A model generated the notes under the pieces. The model saw only the letters and a list, made by a program, of their open reading frames with translations, did no database searches and had not been told where the DNA came from. Made by a program: the position numbers and the translations under genes. From Nemertoderma westbladi (lineage: Eukaryota > Animalia > Xenacoelomorpha): a stretch of DNA of 57,538 bases. This document shows, piece after piece, positions 8,936 to 57,538 of this stretch (positions are counted from its first letter, which is position 1; every line of letters starts with the position of its first letter). The stretch covers positions 1 to 57,538 of the forward strand of contig JAUCBJ010005502.1 in assembly GCA_032718475.1 (NCBI GenBank). The letters run 5' to 3'.

Positions 8936-10440
8936 CATATCAGCTGATATCCGTAACTAAGGAAATAACTTCATTCTGTACTGTACTGTACAGCAGTAGG
9001 CCTACCGAACCGATACAGTTGTTATCACAGTAGGCTATTATTACTGGTGTGGAATCCGGGAATGGCAAGGATGATGTTGGTCTTTTTTTTTTTTTTTTTT
9101 TTTTTCGGGAGGTATCTCAGCATATTTATTATTAAAACTAGTAAAAACAGCTGATACACATCAGATCACATAGCAACCACCACCAACAACCAGACAAATA
9201 TACACTGTTAAATTAGTACTACAGTCAGACAGTTAGTATATGATACTGTCTGACTGTCCTCCAAACTTGGAGGGTTGTTATCCACAGCCGCCTACGCCGG
9301 GTTGCAGTCGCCATTGCTGTGGATGATCAACTCCACATCGTACTGAACCGGACGCCTCTTAGCTGATCGGCAGCCGCGAAGGCACAGGAGGGCTGACCAC
9401 AAAAGGGCGAAACTCAACCTCCTGCGAACCCACACAACACACTCTGAATAGCGGACCTCGCGTTTGTCAGCCAGTTTCAACGCGAGACGCTTGATAAACT
9501 GTGTGGCTGACGGTGAAGCTCCACCAAACACAGAGAATATAAGGGGAGTGAAGCTGGCGTGCTCCACCTCCCTCAACTGCTCTTCGTATTTGAGCCTCAT
9601 GCGAGACTCGTGGTGTAGGTGAGATGCCGGAAGGGACATTGCGGCGTTGGTGTCCACCAGCGGGTTGAAGACAGACACGTCAATGAACGTTTTCCGGAAA
9701 CGGTTTCCCCAGAATCTGCTCACCGATACATCCAGCCTCGCCTGCTGGTCCGTCAAAGTCGACCGATGGCTGAACGTCTCGCCCGATATTGGCTGCAGAA
9801 GCGGTTCCACCCCAACGATGGACGATGTTGTGTTGGTCTAGTTTAGTTTGTGGTACTGACACAAGTCAAAGCACTGAGGATTAAATTGTGACAGATGATT
9901 ATTTGGTGTTGATGTAACAGATGACACTTCTTAATATATGGCTGCGACTGTACTGGTGGCAGTCATTGGTACTGCTACAGAGGTAGGGTAGAAGAAAAGG
10001 GATCTGTACCCTCAACTGGTAATGGACAAAGTTCTTTCTGTCTTTCAGAGCGAATACATTTCCATGGGATACATTTCCATAAACTGGTATATTATCCAAG
10101 TTGACAGATGCCATTTTTCTTCTACCCTACCGGTACTGATGGCTACCACGGTACAGCAGTACGTGTACAGTCGCGGCCATACTGCCATATATTAACAGTC
10201 GTCTGTCACATCAACACCAAATAACAGCCTGTCGCAATTTAATACTCAGTGTTTTGACTTGTGTTGGTACCACAAATTAAACTAGACCAACGTTGTCCTT
10301 GCCATTCCCAGATTCCATACAGCCATACTGGTAATTATAGCCTACCAGTACCATGATAACAATAACTGTATAATAACTCGGTAGGCCTACTGCTGCATGG
10401 TACAGTACAGAACATAATTTCCTTAGTTACAGCTGATATG
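8936..10440. mobile_element. Foldback/palindromic non-autonomous element interrupted by a retrotransposon insertion
   Basis: 8936-9083 plus 9840-9998 is the diverged reverse complement of 10114-10440 (e.g. catatcagctg/cagctgatatg; gtagggtagaagaaaa/ttttcttctaccctac). Confidence 0.8.
9083..9830 (-). mobile_element. 5'-truncated CRE-like non-LTR retrotransposon: restriction-like endonuclease domain, 3'UTR and poly(A)
   Basis: ORF 9810-9292 has ARLDV..FW...FIDVSVFNP...KYE...SFTPLIFSVFGG; 23-nt T run at 9083-9105; 9-bp target-site duplication tgttggtct at 9075-9083 and 9831-9839. Confidence 0.9.
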
Positions 10441-11039: not shown

Positions 11040-11671
11040 CACACAAAGGAAACTCTACCACGATCCGGAGATTCTATCATTTACTACAAAGTCGCGGTTT
11101 CTACAGACGGGAACCACATTGCATCGGGAGTCGAGGTACCGGGAAGGGAGTTAGTGGTTGGTGGGAGGGTGGGTGAATGGAGGGAGGGAATATATATAAA
11201 TCCCTCCAACCGGGACGTCATTGCAACATGTGGGTTCAACGGGGGGGGATTTCATTAATATCAATAACTGCTAGGAACTATAAGGTTACTAACTGGGAGA
11301 ACTATAAGGTTAGTACTAACTGGGAGGGGCATTCTGGGCGTGTTTACTGTATTCGGTTCAACTCGAACTGGTCCCAGTTGGCCAGCTGTTCGAGTGATAG
11401 TACAGTGAAAGTTTGGTGGACTGGAACACGAGAGCTTTTGTACGGGGCACAGTGGCAGAGTGGGGGAGGTATACAGGCTGGGTTGGGGACCGGGTGGGGA
11501 GTCTGTGGTGTCGGTAGGTGGGGGAGGGAGGATCGATCGCTTCGTTGTTGGTACAGGGGAGACCTTGTGGAGACAGGGTCCTGAGGATCGTAGGCATATG
11601 AATGGCCTCAACGGATGGGAGCCGCATCGAAGCTGTGGATTTCTGTAAAGATAAACGGCATATTATTACAG
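11040..11671 (+). pseudogene. WD40-repeat coding fragment, frameshifted
   Basis: GHSGRVYCIRFNSNWSQLASCSSDSTVKVW is a canonical WD40 repeat; neighbouring frames give further WD-like strands (VAVSTDGNHIASG, INPSNRDVIATCG); possible splice donor ag|gtaatt near 11671. Confidence 0.65.
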
Positions 11672-28559: not shown

Positions 28560-29800
28560 TTATTATGGATATTAATCCGGAGCTGACAGGGATTGCGATA
28601 ATGACTCGTTGGAACTGGAATCAGAGATATTGGGTCACTTTTCCCAGACTTTCAGGCAACTAAAACCAGATGAAAATCTCATGAATATCAACATTGATAA
28701 TGGTTATTTATCTGAATCAAAATTTAACTGTAATTTCTCCCACTTACAAAATTCAAACTCCCTATCAATATTTCATTTTAATTATAGAAGCCTAGCGAAA
28801 AATAAAATCTTCCCTCATTGATTTCTTCCTTACTCTTAATTTAAATTTTGACATACTAATGTTTTCTAAAACCTTTATAGCGGATGATGACAATAAACAA
28901 TTACTAAAATTCAGTGGTTATCAAGGACTGTTCCTTGATAACCAATCCATAGGTAGATTACATCAAGGAAGCACGGCCATATTTGTCCGTGACTCCCTCA
29001 ATGTATCTCAATGAGATGACCTTAAAATTTGGGGCCTCAAAAATTCTTCGATCCAAATAATGTATAAAATGGATCAACGCTTCAAAACACAAATTCTAGG
29101 TACTATTTACAGTACTGATGCTATTTCATTTGATACTTTTTCTTCTCGACTAGATACTATACTAACCAATCTAACCAACCGAAACTATGGTGTCATAATC
29201 ACAGGAGACACTAATATTGACCTACTAAAATCTAATAAACAATCTAAACAATACATTGAACTGCTGAACTCATACGGATTCATTCAACTTATAAATAACC
29301 CTACTTGCGTAACTCTCTGGTCAAAATCCATAATAGATCATATTATCACAAATATTACTAGCTACTAACTCTGGGGTCTTTGAGCTTAAAATTGGCTCCT
29401 CCGATCACTACGCTACATTTACTATTCTATGAAACTACTCCTGCTTCTTCAATAAGCCTAAAAATGAATAAATTTACGACTTCTCAAATTTTATCTCTAA
29501 TAATTTTTTAGCTGATCTATCCACAAACACCTGGTTGTACAACTCACCAACTATACCAAATAATGAAAAATTCGACCACTTCTACAACAACCTCGGGATA
29601 ACACCTAACCTTTTCAATTGCAAAAAATAAGCTCTACCATATTTATATAAAAAACCCTACTGACACCATGCATGTGCATCTAAACTTCAAAAACTACCGG
29701 AACAAACTCACAACTATTCTACGCAATACAGAAAAAGCATATTACACTTCCCAATTCGAAGTAAACTCAAAAAACACACGAAAAACGTTGATTATCATCA
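28560..29800 (+). mobile_element. Decayed CR1/L2-group non-LTR element, APE endonuclease and linker
   Basis: SIFHFNYRSL, IITGDTNIDLLK, QLINNPT.V...SIIDHII, SDHY, FKNYRNKLTTILRNTEKAYY. Confidence 0.85.
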
Positions 29801-29804
29801 ACAA

Positions 29805-31600
29805 CGCATCAACAATGTACAGACTCAGACACTTTTACTTCTATAAAGTTATCAGGCAATACCCTGTCATTATTGAGGAGCTTTTCAAAGTGGGCATTCC
29901 AACCATTGAGGTGATCGGCTGGTGATTCTACCTTAACCCTTGGTGGTTGGTTGGCTTTTCCACCCAATAAGCAAGTTGATCAATTTCCATCCCTGAGATG
30001 ATTGCCTGCTGTTGTCCGCATCATTGATGGCATCAACCTGTTGGTTTATTAGCTCCTGCAGATTAACAGAGTACTGCCTGTTCAGGGACCTAGATACAGC
30101 ATTAACTGCATTCTTTGCCGCTGTAGTCTGTTAGAGTCGGGACTCTTTCTGCACCTTATAGAGGTCCAGGGGGCCCTTTTCCTGTTACAATGGTATACAG
30201 GAACTGTTGCTGCAGCTGCTAACTTAACTGCTTCTGTGAAGGCAGTATAGCCCTCTCAGTGATCTGCAGCCTCAGAGGCAAGAACCTCATACCTGTTGCT
30301 CAGCTGTAGTGTGAATGAAGCTGGATCTCACACTTGGCTGTTGCTACAGAGAGGACCAGTCATACCATGGCAAGGTAGATTTCGTTGTTCTGCTAGCACG
30401 CAGACTAAGTCTTACCTTGGCCACAATAAGGCTGGAGAAGGGTCGAAATGTAAAAGCATTACAGTCTTGTATAGAGCTCTGTATTTCCTATCTGGGACTA
30501 TCTGTAGTCTATCTGGGACTTGTGACCACTGGGTCCACTATGAGTCCATAGCTTTCCAGTTCACTTCTTGAACTGGGTTCCAGCTGAAAACAATCCATTT
30601 GAAGAGATAAAATCCTGAAGATGGACGGAATTTCGGTTAACACTATCGCTATAGACCCAGGGCAATGTAGGTGATTGATGCAGACTTGCATTAAAGTCTC
30701 CCAGGAATGTTAAGAATGCATGCTGATCCACTCCATCAGTAGCTGCATGTAGATTGTGGTAGAAATTTTCCACCTCCTCTACAGGGGCAAAACTAGTTGG
30801 AAGGTAGCACACAATCAGAATCACCTTAGGAAACTTCTTAGACAGTCTTCCAGAACATGAGAAGTGGCAACGGATGATCCAGTTAGAGATTTGGTCTATT
30901 TTGTCCAATGCTGCATGTGCAGTTTGATTCATCAATAGACCAATTCCACCATTGCCACTATCATCTGCTGATGCAAGGGCGAGTCACCAACCACCCCCAT
31001 GTCCTTAATCAGAACGTCATCAGTCTGTCCAGTATGCATTCGGTGCTCTTGAATTCCCACTGCTCTAAGAGAAAGCTTATCTGCCAAGGCAGTCAGCTCA
31101 CCTTGTCGCATTGGGGACCTGAGTGTTAGGGTGTTAACTGAGGCTAGTCTAGTGACTTGCCTTAGATTCACCAATGGCTTAGTTGGTCGGGGTGGAACAT
31201 GAGAGTAGCCTCCAACTCCAGAATACCTCTCCCCTCACAATCTGGCCTCCCTGGTGACCCAGGGTTTGGGCCAGAAAGGTCATCAGGAAGAGGAATCACA
31301 TAATTGTTGGCTGCTCTCTCTCCAGTAGGGGGTGAGACAGGCCGGTCAGGAGATAACTGACGCCTGTGAGGCCAATTGTGGCCTGGTTTACACCCTGGTT
31401 TGCCATTCCACAGGGTGGGTGTCGCAGTGGAGTCAGATATGAGGCCCATCACCCATACCTACTCTGACGCACATGAACCACCATTGGTTGTGCAGCTCAT
31501 CTGCTGGGCCATGCCTTATACCCTTGCAGTCGCAGTGAAGTGCACTCAGAGTGGACATGAAAACACTCTACTCCTGACCAGTCATTGGTAGATTACCATC
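29805..31600 (-). mobile_element. Decayed RTE-like non-LTR element, 5' region with APE endonuclease
   Basis: ASVNTLTL, VGIQEHR, LIVCYLPTS, FLGDFNA in ORFs 31174-30932 and 30935-30561; GC-richer block. Confidence 0.8.
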
Positions 31601-32380: not shown

Positions 32381-34779
32381 ATCTCAAAATAAACGATTAT
32401 TTATATTCCTAGCCAGTCAGTGGCATCTCTCCCTGCCTGCCTGCCTGACTATTCCTATGACTACCTACCTATTAATTTATGCTCAACCTGTTTAACTAAT
32501 ATTCCTACAGAGTCTGTATTTATTGTATTATTGTGTTTATTGCTTTAGCTAAAAGACAGATTTAATAATGATTGTCAATAATATTAAATACCAGAACTGT
32601 AGGCTTATATCCGAAATAGTTTATACCACAAAATATTGGGCTGGCTATTTGTTAATGGGATTTCTGTGGAATGATCTAAAAATATTATTATTATTTTATT
32701 GAGTCCTTATAATTAGCCAAATTGAATACCAATTTGAGTAACTAAAGCTACTTCAACTAAGCCTACTAGTCCATTTTTTCCTTTTCAAAATAAGAACTTA
32801 GATCCTTGTCCAGATTATTTTTTCAGTTTGGTATAAGACACTGTCTTTTTGACACACCCAAACTTCTCTTCGTCTCTGAGTTTCATTAGACTGTTTTTTT
32901 TCTTTATTTATTGAACAATTGTTACTTCTTTTTTTTCCTCTAGGTGGATTATTATTTTTTTTTACTATATTTGCCCTTGTTTTTTGTCCAATAATTTTTT
33001 TTTACATTTTCTTTTCTCCCATCTTGTTTTCTCCCTTCTTGTTTTTTCCCTTCTTGTTTTCTCTGTTCAACACTGTTCAACCATCTTATTAACCATCCAT
33101 ATTGACCGCAAGGGATCTGGGGGGAGACAAATAACCTGGTTTGGTTAGTTCCTATGAATGGAATGGGTCTTGGAAGACAACCTCTGGGTTGTAATCGATG
33201 AGATCCAACAGGATAGTACCCATCCCAGCAGTGGTCTCACAGATATACTGTACAACCACGTCACCACATCTCCCCAACCAAATGAAATTGCTTAAATCCA
33301 AAGTGAAACGAGAAACACGAGGTAGCATTGTAAGTTCAAGCACTTTGAGAGGCAGCAATGAGTAAAAAGTCTCCAAGATTGGGTTTCCTGAGTCCCGGAT
33401 GAAGTATGGGAAGTTGACTCAATGCATTGCGGTGGATCTGGGTAATCCTTCTGGTAGGTCCGGAATAGGCATGGATTGAAATCTCCATATATATATATAC
33501 ATATATAAATCTCTATTTGAATTCTCCATATATACATGTGTAATGTATATTGGTGGTCTCAATGATGGTTAGTGTACCTTAAAACAAAATGTCAAGGTCA
33601 GGTCAGGTATTCTAGGTCATTGATCAAGAAAACTACTAGCCACACCATGACTCATAAATTATTCCATGCAAATATATAATTGAGAATTAAATTACCGGTA
33701 TATATTACATTTACTAGCTAATAAAACTAGCTAACACAAAATCAAAAGTACTAGCTACCATCTTACTGTCAGAAGGTCAAATATTTGTTCTAGATAAAAA
33801 AACCTCATAATAAAGTACATTTTTACAAGAAAAAACTTGGTAATTTTTTTTTCAATTTTTCAATTATAATTTTTTTCACTAGCTAATAAAAAGTACTAGC
33901 TAATACAAAATCAAAATTACTAGCTACCATCATACTGCCAGAAAGGTAAATATTTGTTCTAAAACATTAAACCTCATGATAAAAACCATTTTCATATGAA
34001 ACAATTTGTTTAAAAAGTAGGTACCCATAACATAGTAGTACCCACTAGCTACCATATAATATATATTAAGGTTCTAGAATATTCACCATTATATAGTACC
34101 AATTAAATTTGGTCCCGGACAATTCGGTCCCATTAATATGCATGTTTTGGGACCGAATTGTCCTAGTCAGTATCCAGACAATTCGGTCCCGGACAATTCG
34201 GTCCCGGAAAATTCGAAGCCTTACCCTTTAGAAACTTCGGCATAAATTCTAACCGCTGATTATCATCCAATTCAGGACACTCCAAATGTACACATACGCG
34301 TTTTTTGAATGCTGGAAACCTTGATGGCTCACCAGAAAATTTTATAGGATTTATGGAAATTTATTTCCATATTGTATTGTATTTTAGCAAGAACAACGTC
34401 TGGCCTTGGCTGCATATTACTGGGATCCTTTTTAACAACATTCGAACCATAGCCATTATAAAGTACATTAGATGATACAGGTTCATATACCATCTGACTT
34501 TGGTAGTTACCAGAGGTTGTATAGTTAGGTTGTACATTTTGATACTTGTATTTCACTTCAGTACTATTGCTTATATTTTTAGCTATTGTTGGTGCAACAC
34601 CAACATCACCATAACAAATTGGTTGATGTTGTTGTGATGTGGGTAAAATATTGGAGCGTTTACTGCAAGTTTGCTTGTACTGGAACTTATAATTGTAGAT
34701 TCAGTTACTTGATGTATAAACAATAATAAAATCTCCTGAAAGGAGAACTTAGACTATATGAACAAGATAACGACAACAA

Positions 34780-36855
34780 TTAAATAGTTGGAATATTATC
34801 GTTTATCTGCGGCAATAATGCCCTATTATACTGATCAGCTAAGTAGAGGACCATCGGGTTGTGGATCATCGATTCACTGCACTTGTCCTCTGAGGACTCG
34901 CCAGGTAATTGTACCACAAGTCTACCGTTTATGGTGGCGCAACCCATGATGTATATCCTACGGAAGTTTGCCAAGAACCCCTCTAATTCATTGTTATTGC
35001 ATACAGCCAGGAGAATGTTCTCGGCATGTATTATTTTCGCTATCCCCTCCAATTTAGTGAGAGTGCTCGGTAAATACTCGGACCAGTTTGTTATTCCGTC
35101 AGATTCGATGAGTTGCATCGCCAGCGAGTGTATAATACTCGCAGTTTGAATTCTTATACGCGATAGTCCTCGGTTGTGCCGTATTTTAACCGGCCACATC
35201 CCTAAATGGTAGCATATTATTGCTATATCTGCTCTAACTCCTTCGCCCGGTTCCTTATAGTAGAAGATAGTACAGTCATGATATATCTCCTTTGCTCGTG
35301 AAGCGACGGCACGATCAACCATTTGGAATACGACGAGTGGTAGTTTTGAAGAGTCACTAACCAAATGGGCGGGACCCTTTATTACAGCTCCATGTAACAT
35401 CCTGGTACTCTCAGTCCCAGTTCCCTCTGTTGTGATGATCGGTAATATGACTACCCCGTCGTTCTGATTTTACATGTACGAAGCTACAGGTCTCAACATG
35501 GCCTCATACATCGAGATATACTCGTCACCCAAACTGGGACTGAAGGTGGATAAGATCTGGTCACTGATGTTTATCGCTTCGTCATTGACTGCGTTGTAAG
35601 ACTTACGTCCCAAGGGAGGAAGAATTCCGTCAGGGGTTGGACTACCCAGGTAGGCGACGAACTCTTCAATGATCGGATCCGCTTTAGCTGATTGAATCGT
35701 AAAATTATGTAGAGACATTCCCTCATCTATAAATATTCTTTTCCTAGACTCCCTGGCGCGACCCACGCCAAATAATGTCTTCTCCGCTCCCGATATCAGA
35801 TCGTTAGATCTCCTAGGTTCCTTCATGTTATTAGCCCAGTGCGGTAGGCACTTCTGCACTGTAATTTCGAACTCTCTGCTTGTGCTTTGATCTGGCACTA
35901 GATGTAATAGAAAATTTTCACATGCCTTAACGTTTGTAGTATTATCTTTTAACGGCGCTTTTCGCATCCGTAGCGGGAACATGGTTTTCCATTTTATGCA
36001 ACAACCCTCATTAAGAGGGGTCTTGTCAGCGTGAGTAAGTACCTGGAAAGATGTTCTCGGGGTATACATGGTCTGCAATGAAATTCTAATACATTCGTTA
36101 CGGAGATCTAACCGCTTGATTTTACACCTCGATACAGCTTGAGTTGGATCAACTTCTCTCTGGTTGAAGAGGGTTAAAACCTCTTTGGGCATCTCGAGAA
36201 CTTGAGGGGCCTCATTAGTCCTGGCTGCAATCCTGATACGCTCACAGTCATAATCCGATAATTGTAATTTAATGTTAACTAGAGCGTCCTTAATATATAA
36301 TATTTGTTGAGAATTTAGCGCACTAACGTCACCACAGAGTATTTCGGGTTGGAAAAAGTCAACTGCTATTATTGTAGTGAGATTCCTCACTCCTTTGACG
36401 ATTAGGGTTTCTACCTTGCGGTCGTACGATCGTAGAGCGTTTCCAATGTAAGACACCGCTATTTCCACTAACTGCGGTTCAATGTCTGGTTTTACAGGGG
36501 CTTTGTTTTTATTGTACTCAGTACCATTCTTGATAATCCCTTTCTTGATCAGGTCCGGCATGTAGTTCTCTAACTTATCGTCCCATTCGGGTGGAGTATA
36601 CAACCAGTGCTTTGAAATGGCAGTTCCTCTGTCCAATCCTTCTAGCACGATGTACTCATCAACCATATGGTCTCTTTCTAAACTACCTTTGATTAAGAAG
36701 CAGTCGTGAACCTGAGAACAAACTATGTAGTGAATGCACCACATCCATTTGGATAATGAATGTTGCTCTTCATTTCCTCTAAACCACCCCGGGCGGGTGG
36801 TGTCGGGTATCAATGATAGGATTTCAGCGGGTATCATGCTGAGCAGTTTAGACAT
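34780..36855 (-). pseudogene. PA: Endogenous viral element: full-length orthomyxovirus-like polymerase acidic subunit (PA) with one premature stop
   Basis: Collinear PA motifs CIHYIVC, VLEGLDRGTA, YMPDL, LVEIAVS, YDRK, ILPII, LHGAVIKGPAHLVSD, ELEGFLANFRRI, ESMIHNPMVL; ORFs 36855-35470 and 35400-34780 are in the same frame, separated by a single TAA and 23 open codons. Confidence 0.93.
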
Positions 36856-36866
36856 TTTATTAAGAA

Positions 36867-36881
36867 CCTCTTGCTATTGCT
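36867..36881 (-). promoter_or_regulatory. Putative viral segment terminus AGCAATAGCAAGAGG (copy 1)
   Basis: Begins 26 nt before the PA ATG; resembles the influenza positive-sense 5' end AGCAAAAGCAGG. Confidence 0.7.
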
Positions 36882-38399
36882 GGACGAGACAATTCGACAA
36901 CTTATTCGACAACTTAGGCAGGGATATTAAAGTTTAGGAGAATAACGACTGATTTGTTAATGGGATTTCTGTGGAATGATCTAAAAATAATATTATTATT
37001 TTATTGAGTCCTTATAATTAGCCAAATTGAATACCAATTTGAGTAACTAAAGCTACTTCAACTAAGCCTACTAGTCCATTTTTTCCTTTTCAAAATAAGA
37101 ACTTAGATCCTTGTCCAGATTATTTTTTCAGTTTGGTATAAGACACTGTCTTTTTGACACACCCAAACTCCTCTTCCTCTCTGAGTTTCATTCGACTGTT
37201 TTTTTTCTTTATTTATTGAACAATTGTTACTTCTTTTTTTTCCTCTAGGTGGATTATTATTTTTTCTTTGCTATTTTTGCCCTTGTTTTTTGTCCAATAA
37301 TTTTTTTTTACATTTTCTTTTCTCCCATCTTGTTTTCTCCCTTCTTGTTTTTTCCCTTCTTGTTTTCTCTGTTCAACACTGTTCAACCATCTTATTAACC
37401 ATCCATATTGACCGCAAGGGATCTGGGGGGAGACAAATAACCTGGTTAGTTCCTATGAATGGAATGGGTCTTGGAATACGACCTCTGGGTTGTAATCGAT
37501 GAGATCCAACAGGATAGTACCCATCGCAGCAGTGGTCTCACAGATATACTGTACAACCACGTCACCACATCTCCCCAACCAAATGAAATTGCTTAAATCC
37601 AAAGTGAAACGAGAAACACGAGGTAGCATTGGAAGTTCAAGCACTTTGAGAGGCAGCAATGAGTAAAAAGTCTCCACAAGATTGGGTTTCCTGAGTCCCG
37701 GATGAAGTATGGGAAGTTGACTCAATGCATTGCAGTGGATCTGGGTAATCCTTCTGGTAGGTCCGGAATAGGCATGGATTGAAATCTCCATATATATATA
37801 CATATATAAATCTCTATTTGAATTCTCCATATATACATGTGTAATGTATATTGGTGGTCTCAATGATGGTTAGTGTACCTTAAAACAAAATGTCAAGGTC
37901 AGGTCAGGTATTCTAGGTCATTGATCAAGAAAACTACTAGCTACACCATGACTCATAAATTATTCCATGCAAATATATAATTGAGAATTAAATTACCGGT
38001 ATATATTACATTTACTAGCTAATAAAACTAGCTAACGCAAAATCAAAAGTACTAGCTACCATCTTACTGTCAGAAGGTCAAATATTTGTTCTAGATAAAA
38101 AAACCTCATAATAAAGTACATTTTTACAAGAAAAAACTTGGTAATTTTTTTTTCAATTTTTCAATTATAATTTTTTTCACTAGCTAATAAAAAGTACTAG
38201 CTAATACAAAATCAAAATTACTAGCTACCATCATACTGCCAGAAAGGTAAATATTTGTTCTAGAACATAAAACCTCATGATAAAAACCATTTTCATATGA
38301 AACAATTTGTTTAAAAAGTGGGTACCCCTAACATAGTAGTACCCACTAGCTACCATATAATATATATTAAGGTTCTAGAATATTCACCATTATATAGTA

Positions 38400-38612
38400 C
38401 CAATTAAATTTGGTCCCGGACAATTCTGTCCCATTAATATGCATGTTTTGGGACCGAATTGTCCTAGTCAGTATCCAGACAATTCGGTCCCGGACAATTC
38501 GGTCCCGGACAATTTGGTCCCGGACAATTCGGTCCCGGACAATTCGGTCCTGGAAAATTCGGTCCCAAAACACAAAATTAATGGGACCGAATTGTCAGGG
38601 ACCGAATTGTCC
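38400..38612. mobile_element. MITE-like array of 16-bp ggacaattcggtccc(n) repeats in both orientations; shorter counterpart at 34100-34215
   Basis: Direct repeats plus inverted gggaccgaattgtcc copies. Confidence 0.7.
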
Positions 38613-39094
38613 TGCTTCCATAGAATTCTTTGAACAGCATATTTTTAAAGAACGCTCCAGAACATCCAAAGCCTTACCCTTTAAAAACTTCGGCATAAAT
38701 TCTAACCGCTGATTATCATCCAATTCAGGACACTCCAAATGTACACATACTCGTTTTTTGAATGCTGGAAACCTTGATGGCTCACCAGAAATTTTATAGG
38801 ATTTATGGATGCTAGGTATTGTATTTTAGCAAGAACAACGTCTGGCCTTGGCTGCATATTACTGGGATCCTTTTTAACAACATTCGAACCATAGCCATTA
38901 TAAAGTACATTAGATGATACAGGTTCATATACCATCCGACTTTGGTAGTTACCAGAGGTTGTATAGTTAGGTTGTACATTTTGATACTTGTACTTCACTT
39001 CAGTACTATTGCTTATATTTTTAGCTATTGTTGGTGCAACACCAACATCACCATAACAAATTGGTTGATGTTGTTGTGATGTGGGTAAAATATC

Positions 39095-40492
39095 CCTACC
39101 CCATCGTTCTGATTATACATGTACGACGCTACAGGTCAACATGGCCTCATACATCGAGATATACTCGTCACCCAAACTGGGACTGAAGGTGGATAAGATC
39201 TGGTCACTGATGTTTATCGCTTCGTCATCGACTGCGTTGTAAGACTTACGTCCCAAGGGAGGAAGAATTCCGTCAGGGGTTGGACTACCCAGGTAGGCGA
39301 CGAACTCTTCAATGATCGGATCCGCTTTAGCTGATTGAATCGTAAAATTATGTAGAGACATTCCCTCATCTATAAATATTCTTTTCCTAGACTCCCTGGC
39401 GCGACCCACGCCAAATAATGTCTTCTCTGCTCCTGATATCAGATCGTTAGATCTCCTAGGTTCCTTCATGTTATTAGCCCAGTGCGGTAGGCACTTCCGC
39501 ACTGTAATTTCGAACTCTCTGCTTGTGCTTTGATCTGGCACTAGATGTAATAGGAAATTTTCACATGCCTTAACGTTTGTAGTGTTATCTTTTAACGGCG
39601 CTTTTCGCATCAGTAGCGGGAACATGGTTTTCCATTTTATGCAACAACCCTCATTAAGAGGGGTCTTGTCAGCGTGAGTAAGTACCTGGAAAGATGTTCT
39701 CGGGGTAAACATGGTCTGCAATGAAATTCTAATACATTCGTTACGGAGATCTAACCGCTTGATTTTACACCTCGATACAGCTTGAGTTGGATCAACTTCT
39801 CTCTGGTTGAAGAGGGTTAAAACCTCTTTGGTCATCTCGAGAACTTGAGGGGCCTCATTAGTCCTGGCTGCAATCCTGATACGCTCACAGTCATAATCTG
39901 ATAATTGTAATTTAATGTTAACTAGAGCGTCCTTAATATATTGTTGAGAATTTAGCGCACTAACGTCACCACAGAGTATTTCGGGTTGGAAAAAGTCAAC
40001 TGCTATTATTGTAGTGAGATTCCTCACTCCTTTGACGATTAGGGTTTCTACCTTGCGGTCGTACGATCGTAGAGCGTTTCCAACGTAAGACACCGCTATT
40101 TCCACTAACTGCGGTTCAATGTCTGGTTTTACAGGGGCTTTGTTTTTATTGTACTCAGTACCATTCTTGATAATCCCTTTCTTGATCAGGTCCGGCATGT
40201 AGTTCTCTAACTTATCGTCCCATTCGGGTGGAGTATACAACCAGCGCTTTGAAATGGCAGTTCCTCTGTCCAATCCTTCTAGCACGATGTACTCATCAAC
40301 CATATGGTCTCTTTCTAAACTACCTTTGATTAAGAAGCAGTCGTGAACCTGAGAACAAACTATGTAGTGAATGCACCACATCCATTTGGATAATGAATGT
40401 TGCTCTTCATTTCCTCTAAACCACCCCGGGCGGGTGGTGTCGGGTATCAATGATAGGATTTCAGCGGGTATCGTGCTGAGCAGTTTAGACAT
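39095..40492 (-). pseudogene. PA: Second, 3'-truncated copy of the orthomyxovirus-like PA element
   Basis: Nearly identical to copy 1 over ~460 codons; 6-nt in-frame deletion, 2-nt frameshift near 39137, then deletion of the C-terminal third. Confidence 0.93.
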
Positions 40493-40503
40493 TTTATTAA
40501 GAA

Positions 40504-40518
40504 CCTCTTGCTATTGCT
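40504..40518 (-). promoter_or_regulatory. Putative viral segment terminus AGCAATAGCAAGAGG (copy 2)
   Basis: Same motif and spacing as copy 1. Confidence 0.7.
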
Positions 40519-41968
40519 GGACGAGACAATTCGACAACTTATTCAACAACTCGAGACAACTTAGGCAGGGATATTAAAGTTTAGGAGAATAACGACTGAG
40601 ACAATATATATATACATATATTTCATGTATTAACAAATCTCGGTATATTGCCACGTCGAAACTAAAACAAACAAACGATATCAGTGTTCAGAGTTGTACT
40701 AAACTACAAGTCAAATAATTATAGCATATGATTTGTACTGTATATAAAATAACTGAAAATAAACCACGATTGAAATGTATAGGCTGAATAGATATGATGA
40801 CAAATATTTTAATACTTATATATATTTAAGGACAAATATTTTAATACTTATATATATTTATATATATATATTTATTACTTATATATAATATTTATATATT
40901 TATATATATATATATTTATTTATATTCATCTAAATATAGAACTAGTAGTACGAGTAACATTATATATAATATATATACGGATCTGCTAATAAGTTTAAAT
41001 ACATACCTTGTCTCCACATCAAATATATCGAGATATTCAAATCCAAGATAATCAATAATGATACTACATAAATCTACAATATATAACTAGAATGGCTATG
41101 TATAACTTTAAAACTAATTGACACAACGCAAAACTAAACATTTGCAGCTAATAAATACTTAACGTGTACAAGCAAATTGTACAGTAAAACAATATAACTA
41201 CAAAACTGACTGAGTAAAAAACTAATAAACGAATTTGAATGATCGTACTAATGTTACTGTAGCTTACCTATTATAGGCAAACCAATAAACTATTAATTGT
41301 AACAACAAAATCAGCCAAAATGCAAAGCTACAGCTGTATCACAGCAATCACATATGAATGCATCAAAAAACAATATTAAATTAGCTCTAATATATATATA
41401 TAGGTGCCAAGTTCAAATTCATAAGTACTGCCTAGCTGGCAGTAACATCTAGCCTGGCTAGTTTTAATATGTAATTGGTTAGAACACAAAAAAATGTTGT
41501 GTTTGGTTTGATAATTCTGAAGGTATATGGATTTTCGAGGTCGCTGATCACGATGAAACTTGTTAAAAATATTTCTGGTAAGTCAATCATTTTTTGTGCC
41601 ATTTTTCATACCTCAGGATAAAAAGTAAAAGTAGCAGTAAAAGAAGTAAATATTTGAACATGCTGATACCTATTTCTTCAAGAAGGTAACTTTTAAGAAG
41701 ATATGTAAGACATCTGGAAATATGTATGAAACTGTTGTTTCATCGGGTAAACTCTACTACTGTTGGCTTACCGTCAAAAAGGGAATGAAAGCAGTAGCCA
41801 GCTCAGTGTGAAAGCCATCTGCTAGTGGCAAATACCACTAACTTCGCTATTATAAGACTGTGATTTGAAGGAACTCAAGTTAGAATGTGAGTCTAGCCTG
41901 AATCATCTCAGTTACACAAAGGCAAATCGTCAATTTACCATCACCACAACGAATTACTGTTTTCAGAC

Positions 41969-42889: not shown

Positions 42890-43738
42890 GTGTAGTTTCA
42901 CGGATACAACAATCATAGTTGCGAGTTGATCCTCATAAGATAAACCGTCGAGTTCTGCTTCTGCCCCAATTGCTTTAAGTCGGACCAGGTAATCGCTAAG
43001 TCGTTCCCCTTTAGCTTGGCGACATTTTTGGAAGTTTACTCTCAGTGTCAGTACAAAATATTTCTGCTCAAAGTGTTTAGTAAGTCGATCCTAACAGTCA
43101 TTGATAGGGACTGAATCATCTGCCCCAAGGATTTGTATCAGTTCGTGTTTCATTTTCTCTGAGAGACATTTCTCCAAGTGGCCCCGGTATGCATCTAACG
43201 GGAGGCGATTCATGTTATTAGCTGTGGAATATCGAATAAACGCTTTTTTCCAGCTTTTGAATCCAATAAATGTTGTATCGGTTTCGAGGCATATCTCAGG
43301 TTTCAGAGAAGAATCTATCTTTGGATGTCTATCACTGCGTTCAGGTGTTGTAGTTCTCGCAGCCTGTAGATTTGCATGAACTGGAGTTTTTGTGTTAAAT
43401 TGTATTCTACAGCGTCTAATGTGACGGCGCAGACGTCCCAATTCATCTTCCAAACTTAAATATTCTATATATCTAGGTTCTTGTTCGGAAGTATCTTCAT
43501 CGAGTCCCTCAATCCGGTGACTTCCATTGACTGAATTCAGGAATTTCTCTATGGATCCTTTGGCCAACGTAAACTCATCCTCCGTTTCCGCCAAGTCAAT
43601 TTCATAATCTGGATCATCAGTGTCTTTGTCAACTAAACAACTAACGTAGGTCTCCAGTTTATCAATAGCCCTTTTGGCTTGTAAGGCGTACTGGCCACGG
43701 CTTCGCCGGGCTGTCGTAATATCGCCCTTCATTGACAT
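42890..43738 (-). mobile_element. Ty3/gypsy gag, one premature stop, 3'-truncated
   Basis: LKPEIC...FKSWKKAFIRY; reads past the stop into RVNFQKCRQAKGERLSDYLVRLKAIG (major-homology-like region). Confidence 0.8.
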
Positions 43739-45147: not shown

Positions 45148-48100
45148 ATGTCTGACACAAAACGGGCACTGTCAGATAGTCTTTTGAAAGGTGTTAGAAT
45201 GAGTCTTCGACTTGGACAGTGTCTTGAAAGGATAGAAGACGGAAAAGAAGCGGAAAGAAAAGTAGCAGCGGCAGAAGCGGAAAGAAAAGCGGCAGAGGCA
45301 GTGGCAGAAGCAGAACGGAAGGCGTCTGAAGCGACTACCCAACTAGAGCTTGAAAGCCTTCAGGCGAAACAAGATTACTTGAAGAAACAAACCGGAAGAC
45401 AGGGATTTGTCCCCTCCGATGAGGGTGATGTAAGAGATCCCGAAAGTGGAGGTAATAAATCTCGTTCAAGCGGACGTAGAAGAAGCCACACCGTCGGAGG
45501 TTGTCTGATTTCCCTCTTGGGGTGAGAGGGCGAATCTTGTATCATTCATTAGGTAATCTTGAACCCACAGACCAAATTATTACAGTAGAAAGACTCCCTA
45601 CTATAGTAGATGAGCCTGAAATAATTAGGCCTGTTCTCGAAGCCACCCCTTCGGTGATAGAGACACCTGTACTCCCAGAACCTACCTCTAAATTCCCTTT
45701 GCACAGCACGAAACTACCTGTGCCCAGTAGGACTGTTCCCGAGTCCGAACCCATCCCGGACGCCGAGCGAGATATCGAGAATTTATCACCCGTCGTCTCT
45801 CGCTTGCCCGCTACTACGTTGGCGACTCCCGCTTCGGCGGTCGAGTGGGTAGCTGAGGGATGACGGGAGATGGGTCTCCTGCTCGGGCAGCTGAGGGAAC
45901 ATTGTAAATGTTCCTCCCAGCAGGTCCGGGAGTTGGAAGGGACTGTTCAGCAGTTAAAGGGAGCAGTAAGAGAGGGTAGGTTAGCGTTGCAAGAAGTGCA
46001 GCAGAGTATCGCGTCAGAACGCGATAAGTTAGTAAATTTACAAAAGGGTATACCACCACCCTCTGTAACAATGTGTCAACCTGTTAGGTCTGAAGTATTT
46101 CATGCGCAAGGTGTGGAGCCTACACGCATCTATACTGCTAGTGAAGTAGAAACTCCTATAGTAAACCCTATTAAGGGTAATTATAAACCTGTTGACAGTG
46201 ATATTCCATATAGACTTGATAATAATCCGAGAAATTTATATACCGATAACTCGATATTAAATAATACGATGGCCCAAGAAAGTTTTACGCGTCAAATGGC
46301 TAGAACCGAAGCCCGTCAAGCGGTAAAGATGGGAGAGATCGTCAAGTTCAATGGAGATGAGATGAAATGGTTACCTTTTAATGAATATTACAAAGATAAC
46401 ATACAGCACTCCGTGTTATCTAACGGAGAAAAGCTTAGATTCCTCATCGAGTGCTTGGAAGGATCTCCCAAGTTAATGGCGTTAAAGTTTATTGGACATC
46501 CAGATGGATTAAGACAAGTTTGGGATACATTAAACATGAGGTATGATAATAGGAATAACATAGCTAGGTATTTGTATGCAAAATTAATGGCGCCCCGAAA
46601 GTTTCTTAGCAGCGGGATTATAGAGTTTTCCGACGAGATTCAGGAGATCTGTAGACCTGCTAGATTGGTTAGGTAAGTCTCGTGAATACCAGAATTCTAT
46701 GGTTGTAGGAGCCTTAGCATCTACTTTGCCCAAGGGTGGAGTAGGTACACGCTGGGACAAGAATGTGTTATATATGATGGAACAACAACGAAGAGACCCT
46801 ACCATGGCTGATCTCATGTCATTCTTAGATGGAGAGGTAAAATTACAGCTTCTAAAACAGTCCAGAGAGAAGACACCGGAAAATAAGGTAAGTGAGAAAC
46901 CCGTTTCTAGGAGAAAGGTAATATCAGTGTGTTATACAGACGACGGCGAAAGCCAGGCTTCTCAAGAGGAAGACAGCGGGAAAGACACTGAAAGATCTTA
47001 CTATGACAACACAACGCCTAAGGACGTAAGTAAATTCAAGTCTCGAACCAATGACAGGAGAGAACAGGTAAGAAAAACTCCTCCCACGTCTCCTAAAAGA
47101 ATTCACGGAAGAAAGCCCGAGGAAAGAACGAGCGTGCACCACACAGCACATTTTAAAGTAAGTAACATCAAGCCCAAATGTGTGTTGTGCGACGGGCCCC
47201 ACCGTTTAAATGTGTGTAATGAATTCCTAAAGAAATCATTAAAGGATAGACGTGAAGTCATGTGGGATAAGCGGTTGTGTTATAATTGTCTCAGACGAGG
47301 ACACCAACGGCGAACCTGTTACTCTGACACAAGATGTGCCAAGTGCGGTGCGAAACATCATATCTTGTTGCACACTGAATTCGAGCGAAATAGTCCGAGT
47401 CAGGTAAGTGATTCCGAACTACATGTCCAATTCAGTGATGTGAACGACACTGATCAATCTGAGATGGAAGGATTCTATACGGACGAGTTCTCCGACGAAA
47501 ACGAATCCTGTTACATGATAAATACCACAGTGTTCGAGCACTCATTTATGAAAAAGATACAGACATTGACCTCGCTCTAACTACTTCTGATCGACAACCA
47601 TCTTGGAAAGCGCCAACTTCCAATGTAGGGATTAGAGAATTTCCTGTGGTACAGGTAAGGGTCCACGGACCAAAAAGGAGTTATGTAGTGAACGCCCTCC
47701 TCGACTCCGGTAGTACAGGAACATTCATCGACAAAGAGCTAGCCGAAGACATATTCGCTGGACAACCCAAGTTCCGAACTAAGCTAAACATGTCAGGGAT
47801 TATGCAAGTTTGGAAATCCACAGTAACAGCGGACTATTATGTAGGTGCGTTGTCCACCCCCCAGGACGAACTAGGAGAACATAGCATAAGGTCAGTGAAA
47901 ATGGTGGCTATAAAGAACTTCGCTACTACTCAAGCAGACCTTTATAATTGGTGTGGGATGTGGTGTGGTGTGGGGTGTGGGCGCTATGTGATGGGACCCA
48001 TCGCTTAAATATGTGTGATGAATTTCTAAAGAAATCATTAACTGAGAGACGTGAAGTCATGTGGGACAAGCGGTTGTGCTATAATTGCCTCAGACAAGGA

Positions 48101-49452
48101 CACCAACGGCGAACCTGTTACTCTGACACAAGGTGTGCGAAGTGCGGCGCAAAACATCATATTTTGTTGCACACCGAATTCGAAAGAAACAGCCCGAGTC
48201 AGGTAAGTGAGTCCGAACTACATGTCCAATTCAGTGATGTGAACGACACTGACCAAAGTTCTGAGATGGAAGGATTCTATACGGACGAATTCTCCGACCA
48301 AAGTTCTGAAATGGAAGGATTCTATATGGACGAATTCTCAGACGAAAACGAATCCTGTTACTTAATAAATTCCGCAGTGTATCGAGCACTTACGTATGAG
48401 AAGGAAACCGACAGTGAGCTCCCCCTAACTACTTCTGATCGACAACCATCTTGGAAAGCGCCAACTTCCAATGTAGGAATCCGAGAATTTCCTGTAGTAC
48501 AGTTAAGGGTCCACGGACCTAAAAGGAGTTATATAGTGAACGCCCTCCTTGACTCCGGTAGCACAGGAACATTCATCGACAAAGAACTAGCCGAAGACAT
48601 CTTTGCTGGACAACCCAAGTTCCGAACTAAGTTAAACATGTCAGGAATTATGCAGGTTTGGAAATCTACATTAATAGCGATTATTATGTAGGTGCGTTGT
48701 CCACCCCCCAGGATGATCTAGGAGAACACAGCATAAGGTCAGTAAAAATGGTGGCGATAAAGAACTTCGCTACCAGCCAAGTAGAACCTTATAACTGGGA
48801 TGAGGACGATTCCACCCAGCAGCTTAATATACCTAGATTCAACACAGATTACCCTGGAGTGCAAATACTCATCGGCCAAAATGCGCATGGGGCGCTTGAG
48901 ACATTGGAGAAACGGCCTGCTCAACCGCAACCGCTACAAGCCTATGCGGGAAGAACTAGAGTAGGTTGGTACCTTACTGGCCCTTCCCGTAGAACTCTCA
49001 TCGAAAGGTCACCAAAATAACGGGTATACCAAGTAAGCGAATGGGAAGCGGAGAGCAGTGAGGTAGACGACCCAACTGAGGGAACACCATACTCCTCAGA
49101 TAATGACGATATTAACTCCAATGTAGATCAATGGAGACATTGCCCCGAGACGATTAAACTAGCCAGCATCGCTTACAGAGGAGCAACTCCTCAAGAACTG
49201 ACAGATACTCCAGACCGGTTAGGTGGACCCGACTTCCTAAATAAAGAAGATGAATGGCCTCCTCATCTTACCCCGGCAAAGATTAGACAGGCCAAGGGAG
49301 CAGAGAAAGTAACACAACCACTCAATCGCCCAGCTGGTCGTTTATGTTTACTGGAAAGAGACCGAAAACTGTCCGGAAACTATGGAAGGCAAGATACTCT
49401 TCCCACGACCACCTCCCTAATCCAACAAATATCTAGGGACTCCATAACTTAA
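45148..49452 (+). mobile_element. BEL/Pao LTR retrotransposon derivative: gag, triple zinc knuckle and protease (knuckle-protease block duplicated), with RT and integrase deleted
   Basis: KFNGDEMKWLPF...LSNGEKLRFL (DUF1759-like); CVLCDGPHRLNVC / LCYNCLRRGH..C / CAKCGAKHHILLH; VNALLDSGSTGTFI; remnants WRHCP...RG, GPDFL...WP and RPAGRLCLL. Confidence 0.92.
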
Positions 49453-53301: not shown

Positions 53302-55641
53302 TATAGCAATTGCGACTTATATTATCGTGGTTTGTAGTGAATTGAATGCTATTTTATAGGCCCTACAAATGTCGGTTGCTATTCTCTTTATATATGATTA
53401 AAATCAGTGACTATCGGCAATTCAGTGTGCAGCGGTGTGCAATAGTCTGTATGTGCTTGTCCGTGTAACAAAGCATCTCCTAAAGAATGCGCCTTATGTG
53501 TAACTTATAATCCATTCCGTTGTGTTTAGTGTAAGCCATAGCTCTGTTTATATAGATAGAGCGCCACGTCCTAAAGGAACTGCTAATATTTCCCGAAAGT
53601 GAATGATATTTGTCAGAGATTATATATTAACGATCAATCGAATAGTACGGTAGGCCTGCACCGCAATCAAATTAAAGCATCCGAATCCAGTCTCCCGGGT
53701 ATATCCAGCGGGTGAATGGTCGCGCATAGACTGGCTTCGGCTAATGTTGGATTTATTTGTGTCAAATACTTGTCATAGGCTAAAGTCGATTTATAACCTA
53801 GAAGACATATAGATTTGGCGGGTTAAACTGCCAAAGGTCTTAAAAGCGCGAACAACTATATTGTTAAGCAATCAGGTAGAGATCGTCAAATTGTCTGAGG
53901 AAATATTATGTTATGATTAATTCCCTGCTATATGATTAATTAACTTTGCCACCCTGAAGTTGTTGGCTGATGCTACAAAACATCAAAAACTTGCAAAGAT
54001 AAGTGACGAAAGGCTCTCCCTTACTATTCAATTGTCAATTCCATAGACCACGAGTCGGTTAACTTGTAGGTATTTAGTTGGAATACATATTATGATGTGG
54101 ATCATAATATGATGTAACATCTCACAGTTTAATTAAATGAGAACTGCCAATCAATCAATCAATCAATGTATATTTTAACCCATATGATAATTTATAGATA
54201 TATGCACATGTTACTTCAATATATAAATATAATACAGTATATATGCATTTACATGATAATAAGTGCACTTTTTTAAGGAGAAATTCGAATGGGTTTGGAG
54301 GGCAGCCAAATAGCGTAGCTAGTGGACGGCTGCTCGCCAGAAAAGGTACATGGCTTGAAGTAATATCGGTTGTGGGGTTGGGGGGGGGGGGGGGGGGGGG
54401 GGTAAGTGTAATAGAGTAGAATGTAGTAAGGGTAGTAAGTGTTAGAAAATAGTAAGCGGTGATAGGGTAGAGCCCATATATTAGCCCCATATATTAGCCT
54501 TTTGAATAAGATTTAGTATAAGTTGTAATGGTGTAGATGGAAGTGAGTTAAAGTAGTAGATCACTGAGATTTATTTTTTATAGTTATTAATATATATCTT
54601 GTCAATGTGTCACCAAGGTCAAGGTATCACGCGATTTGAAAGGGGTACATCTAGGGGGGTGGTGTAAATACTGGTATTGATAGGACAAACGATTACAATT
54701 AAAACACAATACAGTTCATTTCATTTATGTGGTCTAAGCCACCTTCTATATGGACCTACGAATAGATGTATGTATATATTAATATATATCCTGATTGAAC
54801 ACATATACATATCTTGATTGAATATACACATATATATATATATATATATACACAAAATGTAGCAGAACCGTCACTAATATATATTTTAAAGACATACATA
54901 TGGTTTTATATTAACATTTCTTATATTTTAATTTTATTATATAATACATTTTATTTAACTATTTTATTATTGAATAAATCAAAATGTTTAACATTAGAAA
55001 CAAATTGCTTTTTGCAAATCATCATGGTTCGGCTGCTATGGTCAATATACATATAATTTTTGTATTCTGAAACTGAATATACAAAAACCCTTCAGTTAAT
55101 GGGAAGATTTGACGGCTATGCTACTTATATATATTAAACTTTGGGAGTGGTGATGGTAGCATTTCGAGATATCTTTAAAAACACAGATTATTTCTATATA
55201 TAGAATTTGTACATATAGCGAATATACAAACCGCTATAAAATGCTACATTTTGTTATCCTTAATTATATTAAATAATACTGTAGCCCATTAGTAGCAAAG
55301 TGAAATTACTATATGGAATTTAGTAATATCTGAAAATGTAAGGAAACATATGTAAGACTGCTATTGAGAAATATATAATGTAGTAGAATAATTGGGGGTC
55401 CCTAGCTTCTGTATGTAGGACGTAGAAGGCCACTGTTATTATAGTAGTAGAGTACCGCCGTGCTATTTCAGTATTTAGTCTGTGCGATTTTGTGCTAGTT
55501 TTATTCTGCAATTTCCAATCATTACAAATTAGGCCACTTATTTTCGTATTTCGATAGAACTATGTGTATTATGCATTGATAATGACGCAAATTACGAAAT
55601 CTATCTATCGAAATCTATCTAAAATTATTCGAAATATATCC

Positions 55642-56197
55642 ATCCAACATCCATGATGGATCCGTCCAACATCCATGACGGATCCATCCAACATCCATGA
55701 CGGATCCGTCCAACATCCATGATGGATCCGTCCAACATCCGTGATGGATCCGTCTAACATCCATGATGGATCCGTCCAACATCCATGACGGATCCGTCCA
55801 ACATCCATGACGGATCCGTCCAACATCCATGATGGATCCGTCCAACATCCATGATGGATCCGTCCAACATCCATGACGGATCCGTCCAACATCCATGATG
55901 GATCCGTCCAACATCCATGATGGATCCGTCCAAAATCCATGATGGATCCGTCCAACATCCATGATGGATCCGTCCAACATCCATGATGGATCCGTCCAAC
56001 ATCCATGATGGATCCGTCCAACATCCATGACGGATCCGTCCAACATCCATGACGGATCCGTCCAACATCCATGATGGATCCGTCCAACATCCATGACGAA
56101 TCCGTCCAACATCCATGACGGATGCGTCCAACATCCATGACGGATCCGTCCAACATCCATGACGGATCCGTCCAACATCCATGATGGATCCGTCCAA
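55642..56197. repeat. 22-bp minisatellite (catccatgayggatccgtccaa) x ~25
   Basis: Directly visible; explains the three overlapping repetitive ORFs. Confidence 0.97.
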
Positions 56198-57538
56198 TAT
56201 AAATCTCTGACTTTAAGTCTTATAAATCTCAGTCTGTCTGTCTCGCGATACAATAATAGAAAGCTAACTTGAGCAACGTCACTATCTCGTCATATTTTAA
56301 GTATTTGTTTGCGTGAATCGAATGTGGTCAAAGTGGATTATTTTGCATCGTTTTAGGCCCAAAATATATTACTGGTCAGCAATAGGGACTCAGGCGACTT
56401 TGTAACTGCAGTTTCACCATTAGACTAAGACTAAGGCTGTTCTAACTGAAACTTTGCAGGTATGTATGTATGTATGTACCACAGAGATCTCACGCTGCCT
56501 GTTTGAGTGAGAGGACGCCGACCAGCCTACAGTTCTTCAATCTGCTGCTTGGGTGTGTAATCTCTGAGAGTGAAACCATTCCCATCACCAATTTTATTGT
56601 TTTTGAGCTGATACTGGGGAAAGATCTACTACAAGATTGGATTCGTGTTTGGGAGGAAGCTGAAGTTCTTCAGTCTACCGGTAGTAGGTGGAATGTCTGA
56701 AGGTGAAAAAGTCCTGTATTTTTGTTGTTTTTAATGCTTTTCGAGCTGATGCATGGCATATATAGATTACACCACAGGCGGTTGCGTGTTTAGGAGGACG
56801 TATATTATTCGGCAGTTCACCAGCCTGTCACTAAGTGTTAGCTTATTCAATCCCGCTAACACCCCATAAAGTTTAGCCAATAAGCAATATTGGGAGCCAC
56901 GAGATTGGGTAATTAACCAACTCGTGCCATCCCAATAAGAATGGGAAGGAAACACACAATGAGGGTCAGGGGCCAAACCCCTAACCCAGAGAGAACAGGT
57001 GGAGTGAACGGGAACACTCCAAAGGGCGCCAACAAGGGTATCAACCAATCAGAGGGGGGAAAGGCATCGATTAGGTAGAGTAACAAGGCCAACCGTGCAA
57101 TATAGCCACTTGGCAGTAATCATATCAATTCAGTTATCTCAGTGCAATACTGGTGCTAGTTTAGGTTGCATAGTTTAGCTAGGGAAGGACCGGGACTTTA
57201 GTTACCGTATCCCGCCTTCCGTGTACAACAACAATATTATCTCATATCTATATCTGTATCTATATCTCTATACCCAAACATTATATACGACGTATCATTC
57301 ACTCTTTACACACGGCGGGGATGCGTAAACTAACAACGGATAAACCGGGATCCCTCTTGGATCCCATCACAGTAACTAAATCCGAGCTGCTGCCCTAGTT
57401 AAACTGTAACAACTGCTGCCCTAGCTAGCTGAACTCCACCGATCACCAACCGAGATGAGTCAGTCGGGAGAGATAACACCGACGCGGACCCCGGACGAAG
57501 AGCTAACGATCCGCGAGGCCGCAACCAGGCGATACAGG

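What the first reader, a model, noticed from the sequence alone, without database searches (positions are those of the whole stretch)
36856..36881. Fossilised viral segment terminus upstream of PA
Seen: on the coding strand AGCAATAGCAAGAGG begins 26 nt before the ATG in both copies (also 40518-40504). Known: orthomyxovirus segments start with a short terminus shared across segments (influenza A AGCRAAAGCAGG; its PA 5'UTR is 24 nt). Inference: the authentic segment end is preserved, which gives a homology-independent tag for finding the virus's other segments, including unrecognisable ones. I could not find a convincing complementary 3' terminus or poly(A) after the stop codon.
Basis: partly seen in the sequence, partly recalled or inferred. 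Interest (0 to 1): 0.8.

Follow-up and report, generated by a model that had tools for sequence, protein, structure and literature searches.

The report
Fossil influenza-like virus segment end
A broken copy of an influenza-like virus polymerase gene (PA) sits twice in this genome and likely still begins with the virus's exact RNA-end signal, which would give the first end sequence for this distant virus branch and a short tag for finding its other segments.

Summary
Confirmed: AGCAATAGCAAGAGG starts 26 nt before the ATG of a PA gene in both copies. The copies are one tandem duplication, so they count once. The gene is an orthomyxovirus-like PA, 24-28% identical to its nearest relatives. Three tests support a real segment end. 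The motif obeys the polymerase-binding hook rule. It matches 14 of 15 letters of the published influenza C/D genome-strand 5' end, the only such site in the window. The 26 nt before it are largely re-copied local sequence, an end-joining signature that stops 3 nt short of the motif. The junction is also present in a second study's sample. No poly(A) was found. There is an unproven candidate for the far end at 34502-34518 (hook plus 7-bp duplex; about 25%), which would make a complete 2380-nt segment with a bulge-free promoter. Sharing across segments, the basis of the proposed tag, could not be tested; 12 letters alone are too short to be specific in a genome.

The parts
36867..36881 (-). Segment-end motif, copy A; nt 1-10 (36881-36872) fit the 5' hook
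   Evidence: hook pairs as described in PMC11139864 section 8
36856..36881 (-). 26-nt 5' untranslated region of PA, copy A
   Evidence: influenza C/D equivalents are 14-29 nt (counted)
36882..36907 (-). 26-nt filler, largely re-copied from the sequence just upstream (likely end-joining scar), copy A
   Evidence: 13 of 26 nt covered by local 6-mers or longer in copy A, 17 of 26 in copy B
36908..36952 (-). Upstream leader shared by both copies, probably host
   Evidence: weak joint in run X2 links it to the downstream flank without the virus
35470..36855 (-). PA N-terminal part, 461 aa, copy A; ends at a frame break
34780..35400 (-). PA C-terminal part, 206 aa, copy A, in another frame
   Evidence: PDB Thogoto PA E=1.3e-12 (the entry's virus name is recalled for 8p0b, and 8z85 belongs to the same match set); Pfam Flu_PA E=2.8e-4, below cut-off
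34652..34779 (-). 128 nt after the stop, probably viral 3' UTR; no poly(A), folding no better than shuffles
34398..34651 (-). 254-nt piece of unsettled origin (host-like open frame and low CpG, or longer viral UTR)
34502..34518 (+). Candidate far terminus (would be the genome-strand 5' end), also at 38944-38960; unproven
40504..40518 (-). Segment-end motif, copy B
40519..40544 (-). 26-nt filler, copy B
39113..40492 (-). PA copy B, 459 aa, 3' part deleted at an imperfect direct repeat of about 20 nt
   Evidence: joint 34651 to 35493 in X1, X2, X3 with side 30
36953..39093 (.). Downstream unit of copy B (duplicated at 32647-34651), holding high-copy host repeats

Best explanation
The motif sits 26 nt before a broken orthomyxovirus-like PA gene and is likely the true plus-strand 5' end of that RNA segment, preserved when a DNA copy was likely joined into a host chromosome break. 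Shown: PA identity, tandem duplication, hook-compatible sequence, 14/15 match to the influenza C/D genome-strand 5' end, locally re-copied filler ending 3 nt before the motif. Inferred for the living virus: nt 1-10 folded into the hook that binds the PA/PB1 pocket (A1.A10, G2-C9, C3-G8, A4.A7), and the complement of the motif was the genome's 3' promoter arm. Inferred for integration: a host reverse transcriptase copied leader-free viral RNA (genome or antigenome; about 60%), polymerase-theta-type end joining left the filler (about 60%), then the unit was duplicated and copy B lost its 3' part. In the host the motif is probably inert.
For: Gene: 3 relatives at E 2e-16 to 4e-11, one named as an orthomyxo-like PA; profile of these hits solved PA chains at E 3e-35; the model's best fold matches are influenza PA endonucleases. 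Boundary: 17 of 26 filler nt copy the 30 nt upstream, 0 of 20,000 shuffles reach this; 0 of 26 from the motif onward. Such insertions are a polymerase-theta hallmark (PMC12426944, passages). Records bridge leader, filler and motif in X1 (possible source) and in X3 from a second study (records 8 and 24).
Against: No relative with intact ends to compare: L001 starts 21 nt before its ATG without the motif. Against published plus-strand 5' ends the motif ranks only 15-16 of 115,056 positions, against genome-strand ends 2-3, so its best match has the opposite polarity. Of 20,000 random window spots, 610 (3%) show as much local copying as the filler. The empty-site-like joint rests on one contig in one run, 24 letters on its short side, laid at 88% likeness, which is below the tool's own bar for bridging, and it could be a later deletion. 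The profiles were built from only 3-9 short ends.
Confidence: 0.8

Rival explanations
1. Add-on reading: both ends are preserved. The segment runs 36881 to 34502 (2380 nt, 278-nt 3' UTR) and the promoter is bulge-free, 5' nt 11 pairing with 3' nt 11.
For: GGTAGTTACCAGAGGTT at 34502 has G2-C9 and U3-A8 and repeats nt 11-17 of the motif exactly; 14 of 17 positions pair in register. Hook G2-C9 plus 3-8 pair with a duplex of 5 or more arose in 28 of 10,000 dinucleotide shuffles, of 7 in 4 of 10,000. It would explain why the plus end looks like a genome-strand end. Tilapia lake virus has bulge-free ends (10.1101/2023.08.14.553164, passages). Relative P0002 has a 660-aa PA on a 2447-nt contig, leaving about 460 nt outside the frame.
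Against: Found by scanning, then scored. With looser hook pairs 356 of 10,000 shuffles pass. Its duplex energy (-15.0) is matched by about a quarter of random 420-nt stretches. It has G1, U7, C10 where the Thogoto and influenza C/D ends have A. No U run follows it. It lies inside a frame open for at least 95 codons (41 of 5,000 shuffles; 41 of 522 comparable window stretches) with 1 CpG where 7.7 are expected, against 91 of 98.7 in the viral frames.
Confidence: 0.25
2. Same motif, other route: viral mRNA was copied by a retrotransposon that switched template from a host RNA (the 254-nt piece), and any cap-snatched leader was lost at joining.
For: The piece is exon-like and in the same sense as PA; gag-like and LINE-like remains lie in the window; PA keeps H42, E72, D101, E131, K147 in all 4 aligned sequences, which by recalled influenza numbering look like an active cap-snatching site. 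Firefly EVEs are explained this way (10.1101/237586, passages).
Against: No poly(A); at most 3 unexplained nt lie before the motif, where influenza leaders are 9-13 nt; no retroelement family match at either junction among the 8 frames scanned.
Confidence: 0.3
3. The viral sequence extends further upstream: the 70-80 nt leader is viral (a longer UTR or the end of another segment) and the motif is internal.
For: The leader is shared by both copies and shares short words with the 128 nt after the stop (by eye).
Against: The duplicated unit also takes in 2 kb of host repeats. The filler is patchwork of the leader. No hook-rule site lies in the leader. X2 has a weak joint from leader to downstream flank.
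Confidence: 0.07
4. The motif is host sequence or a chance look-alike.
For: AG-start hooks occur 17 times in the window.
Against: 14/15 match to a published terminus, at the expected distance from a PA start, at the edge of the filler.
Confidence: 0.04

Closest known systems
Influenza C and D virus segment ends (PMC3567177 Table S1)
   Same: 14 of 15 letters of the genome-strand 5' end of PB2, PB1 and M; 8 of the first 10 letters of the plus-strand end (my comparison); UTR length in range
   Different: Here the sequence is at the plus-strand 5' end; no U run and no confirmed partner end; PA is far from influenza C/D (profile E about 1e-13)
Thogotovirus PA and promoter (PMC11139864)
   Same: Best solved-structure match for the PA C-terminal part; plus-strand end starts AGCAA with C9 and A10; same hook geometry; mRNA without a foreign leader
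   Different: Letters 6 and 8 differ, giving a true 3-8 pair; the N-terminal domain matched influenza endonucleases best whereas the Thogoto one is described as non-functional
Xinjiang sediment orthomyxo-like virus 1 PA (UMO75721.1) and two unnamed metagenome PAs (P0002, P0003)
   Same: Nearest relatives, 24-28% identity over the N-terminal 461 aa
   Different: Host unknown; no termini available (L001 is cut at both ends)
Orthomyxovirus EVEs of mosquitoes, ticks and fireflies (PMC10956553, 10.1101/237586; passages)
   Same: Segment copies in host DNA near transposons, often frameshifted, some full length
   Different: The passages seen do not report an exact preserved terminus or a templated junction; different virus branch
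Tilapia lake virus promoter (10.1101/2023.08.14.553164, passages)
   Same: Bulge-free ends with duplex 11-15 and no oligo-U, as the candidate far end would need
   Different: 7-nt hook and unrelated letters; applies only if the candidate is real

Membership tests
Articulavirales PA segment | Encodes a PA homologue (endonuclease plus C-terminal domain) | tested here: met
   both models are low confidence (pLDDT 42 and 55)
Articulavirales PA segment | Plus strand starts with AGC and a short UTR | tested here: met
Articulavirales PA segment | 5' nt 1-10 can form the hook (2-9 and 3-8 pairs, A1, A7, A10) | tested here: met
   against the rule; sequence rule only
Articulavirales PA segment | Far end partly complementary, with a distal duplex | tested here: inconclusive
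   candidate 34502-34518
Articulavirales PA segment | End shared across segments | not testable with these tools
   no genome held; no second segment in the 14 plus 8 frames scanned
Orthomyxoviridae in the narrow sense | Oligo-U polyadenylation signal near the genome 5' end | tested here: not met
   none after the candidate end and no poly(A) in the tail; may simply be missing from the copy
Orthomyxoviridae in the narrow sense | Placement by PB1 tree | not testable with these tools
   no PB1 in the window; no tree was built
Non-retroviral endogenous viral element | Viral sequence joined to host DNA and decayed | tested here: met
   frame break and deletion; held in runs guessed to be DNA from 2 studies, one a possible source
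Polymerase-theta end-joining junction | Short patchwork insertion templated from the flank | tested here: met
   compared
Polymerase-theta end-joining junction | Defined pre-insertion allele and dependence on the enzyme | not testable with these tools
   only a weak joint in X2

The most novel reading that the evidence does not exclude
A complete 2380-nt PA segment of an undescribed Articulavirales branch is fossilised with both ends, and shows a symmetric, bulge-free promoter that joins influenza C/D-like letters to tilapia-lake-virus-like geometry, a link between the two promoter types.
Probability: 0.2. Interest if true: 0.72.

Novelty: new member of a known kind. Interest (0 to 1): 0.5.

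Why it matters
Metagenome assemblies usually lose segment ends (L001 here; also stated in PMC6832935, passages), so promoters of deep influenza-like branches are mostly unknown. An EVE that keeps the end fills that gap, shows the hook is conserved where PA identity is about 25%, and gives a way to fish for segments with no homologues in host RNA data. The junction also records how the RNA virus copy entered the genome. Orthomyxo EVEs and terminus-guided segment searches are both already known, which limits the surprise.

Tried and rejected
Host genome search: no genome is held. Expression: no RNA holder listed, which is no evidence either way. Run X5 (same species label) had no cover on 34250-36999 but covers only 6 of 30 bins, so it is no empty-site proof. 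Depth figures were looked at as copy numbers and dropped, as the tool warns against it. Reads were laid on copy A and its downstream flank only, so the flank upstream of copy B is unexamined. Word-index protein searches found nothing new (0 hits; only P0002). PDB sequence search with the 461-aa part: 0 hits. Related loci: 0 in viral contigs, 1 in metagenome contigs, with cut ends. Motif-plus-ATG scan of viral contigs: 120 stretches, scan stopped at its limit; none within 60 nt of a locus 5' end and none encoding a PA relative, so treated as chance. Other far-end candidates rejected: 34386 (10 matches plus 1 wobble in 17, no distal duplex, 0.07 expected by chance) and the stretch near 34657 (3 plus 2 of 17). 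The 128-nt tail folds no better than shuffles (z -0.59). Rfam: 3 weak microRNA matches far below cut-off. The open frame of the 254-nt piece has no Pfam match and the protein atlas gave no answer. Earlier scan notes: nothing. Papers without usable termini: PMC6932829, PMC11346362, PMC6832935, PMC10183022, PMC10636315 (passages). PMC2772707 is not held.

Full report
Observation. The motif starts at 36881 and 40518 on the minus strand, 26 nt before ATGs at 36855 and 40492. These are the only exact matches of its first 12 letters in the window. Read on the minus strand the locus is: flank, leader, PA copy B (3' part deleted), 2-kb unit, leader, PA copy A, second 2-kb unit, flank. The halves are 95-98% alike; the PA parts differ at 13 of 1356 aligned columns plus 6 gap columns. 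So one insertion was duplicated, recently, and the two motifs are one observation.

The gene. Copy A holds two frames, 461 and 206 aa, with a break between them. The second matches solved PA chains at E 1.3e-12. The first found 3 relatives among 1.84 billion proteins, one named Xinjiang sediment orthomyxo-like virus 1 PA; all 3 match Flu_PA. A profile of the group hits thogotovirus-type PA at E 3e-35 and influenza C/D at 1e-13 (which virus each entry is comes partly from recall). A low-confidence model matches influenza PA endonucleases best. No tree was built, so genus and family stay open. The host is an AT-rich, transposon-rich eukaryote that I could not name.

Is the motif a terminus? Three lines agree. 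First, anatomy. Thogoto virus 5' ends form a 10-nt hook with 2-9 and 3-8 pairs and A1, A7, A10 (PMC11139864, section 8 and passages). The motif fits fully; 17 of 115,076 positions do. Second, letters. It differs at one of 15 positions from the genome-strand 5' end of influenza C/D PB2, PB1 and M (PMC3567177 Table S1). No other window site is within 3 mismatches. Against plus-strand ends it ranks 15-16 of 115,056, still high but not first. Third, position. The 26 nt upstream are patchwork: a 9-mer and an 8-mer copied from the previous 30 nt, 17 of 26 nt, reached by 0 of 20,000 shuffles though by 3% of random spots in this repeat-rich window. Copying stops 3 nt before the motif; 0 of the next 26 nt are locally copied. 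Such patchwork is the described mark of polymerase-theta end joining (PMC12426944, passages). That enzyme's role is inferred.

Other samples. Three runs from two studies hold 87-98% of the sampled words; X1 may be the source, X2 and X3 are one sample. Records bridge leader, filler and motif in X1 and X3, and all three runs show the copy-B deletion joint, so neither is an assembly error. X2 has one contig joining the leader (36911) to 34397 without the virus. A GTTGTT stands at both points in copy B, which would fit a target duplication or a later deletion. With 24 letters on the short side this is a hint only.

The far end. There is no poly(A). A duplex scan gave one notable site, 34502-34518, read on the opposite strand as GGTAGTTACCAGAGGTT. 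It has G2-C9, U3-A8 and an exact 7-bp partner for motif nt 11-17; 28 of 10,000 shuffles meet that hook with 5 bp and 4 with 7 bp, but 356 meet a looser hook. If real, the segment is 2380 nt and the promoter lacks the influenza bulge, as in tilapia lake virus, which would explain the odd polarity of the best match. Against it: three otherwise constant A's are changed, no U run follows, its energy is unremarkable, and it lies in a CpG-poor open frame that looks like host coding sequence. I put it at 25%.

Mechanism. Most likely a leader-free viral RNA was reverse transcribed by a host enzyme, the DNA was joined at a break, the unit was duplicated, and copy B lost 841 nt between imperfect repeats of about 20 nt. 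An intact start with no poly(A) fits copying from the genome strand better than priming on an mRNA tail (inference). Template switching from a host RNA onto viral mRNA remains a fair rival.

The tag. Untested: no genome is held, L001 has cut ends. From window base frequencies, 12 letters give about 28 chance hits per 200 Mb and 15 give 0.3, but letters past about 12 vary among segments in influenza C/D. A scan of viral contigs gave only apparent chance hits. It should work at RNA contig starts or at junctions, with a frame filter.

Literature. Orthomyxo EVEs, some full length, are known (PMC10956553 passages; PMC6191289 and 10.1101/237586 passages). My ten searches listed no paper on an exact terminus kept in such an EVE or on this motif; these are word searches, figures are not held and bioRxiv supplements are closed, so this is no proof of absence. 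PMC3003268 was seen as abstract only.

Verdict. New member of a known kind; interest 0.5, higher if the far end is confirmed.

Noticed in passing
window 34341-34658 (-) and 38705-39100 (-): Open frame of 106 and 132 codons rich in N, Q, P, Y just downstream of PA, CpG-poor, no Pfam match; host exon or viral piece unknown.
   Followed up: partly
window 34733-34747 (-): Perfect 6-bp hairpin followed by a T-rich run in the tail after the PA stop; the whole tail folds no better than shuffles.
   Followed up: partly
window 34085-34233 and 38386-38626: 15-nt tandem repeats with an inverted block, very high depth in all four runs: a high-copy host repeat.
   Followed up: no
window 45870-48691 (+) and 43091-43738 (-): Gag-like LTR retrotransposon remains (DUF1759, zinc knuckle) 3-8 kb upstream of copy B.
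   Followed up: no
window 4607-5020 (+), 9292-9837 (-), 29060-29368 (+), 30561-30932 (-): Fragments that look like non-LTR retrotransposons (one endonuclease-RT Pfam hit; the others by recalled resemblance).
   Followed up: no
window 55506-56332: 22-nt tandem array that gives long open frames in three registers.
   Followed up: no
window 11177-11584 (+): Short WD40-like stretch by eye, possibly a host exon; not searched.
   Followed up: no
P0001-P0003: The three relatives and this EVE form a small PA group nearest to thogotoviruses in the C-terminal part yet with conserved endonuclease-like residues.
   Followed up: partly
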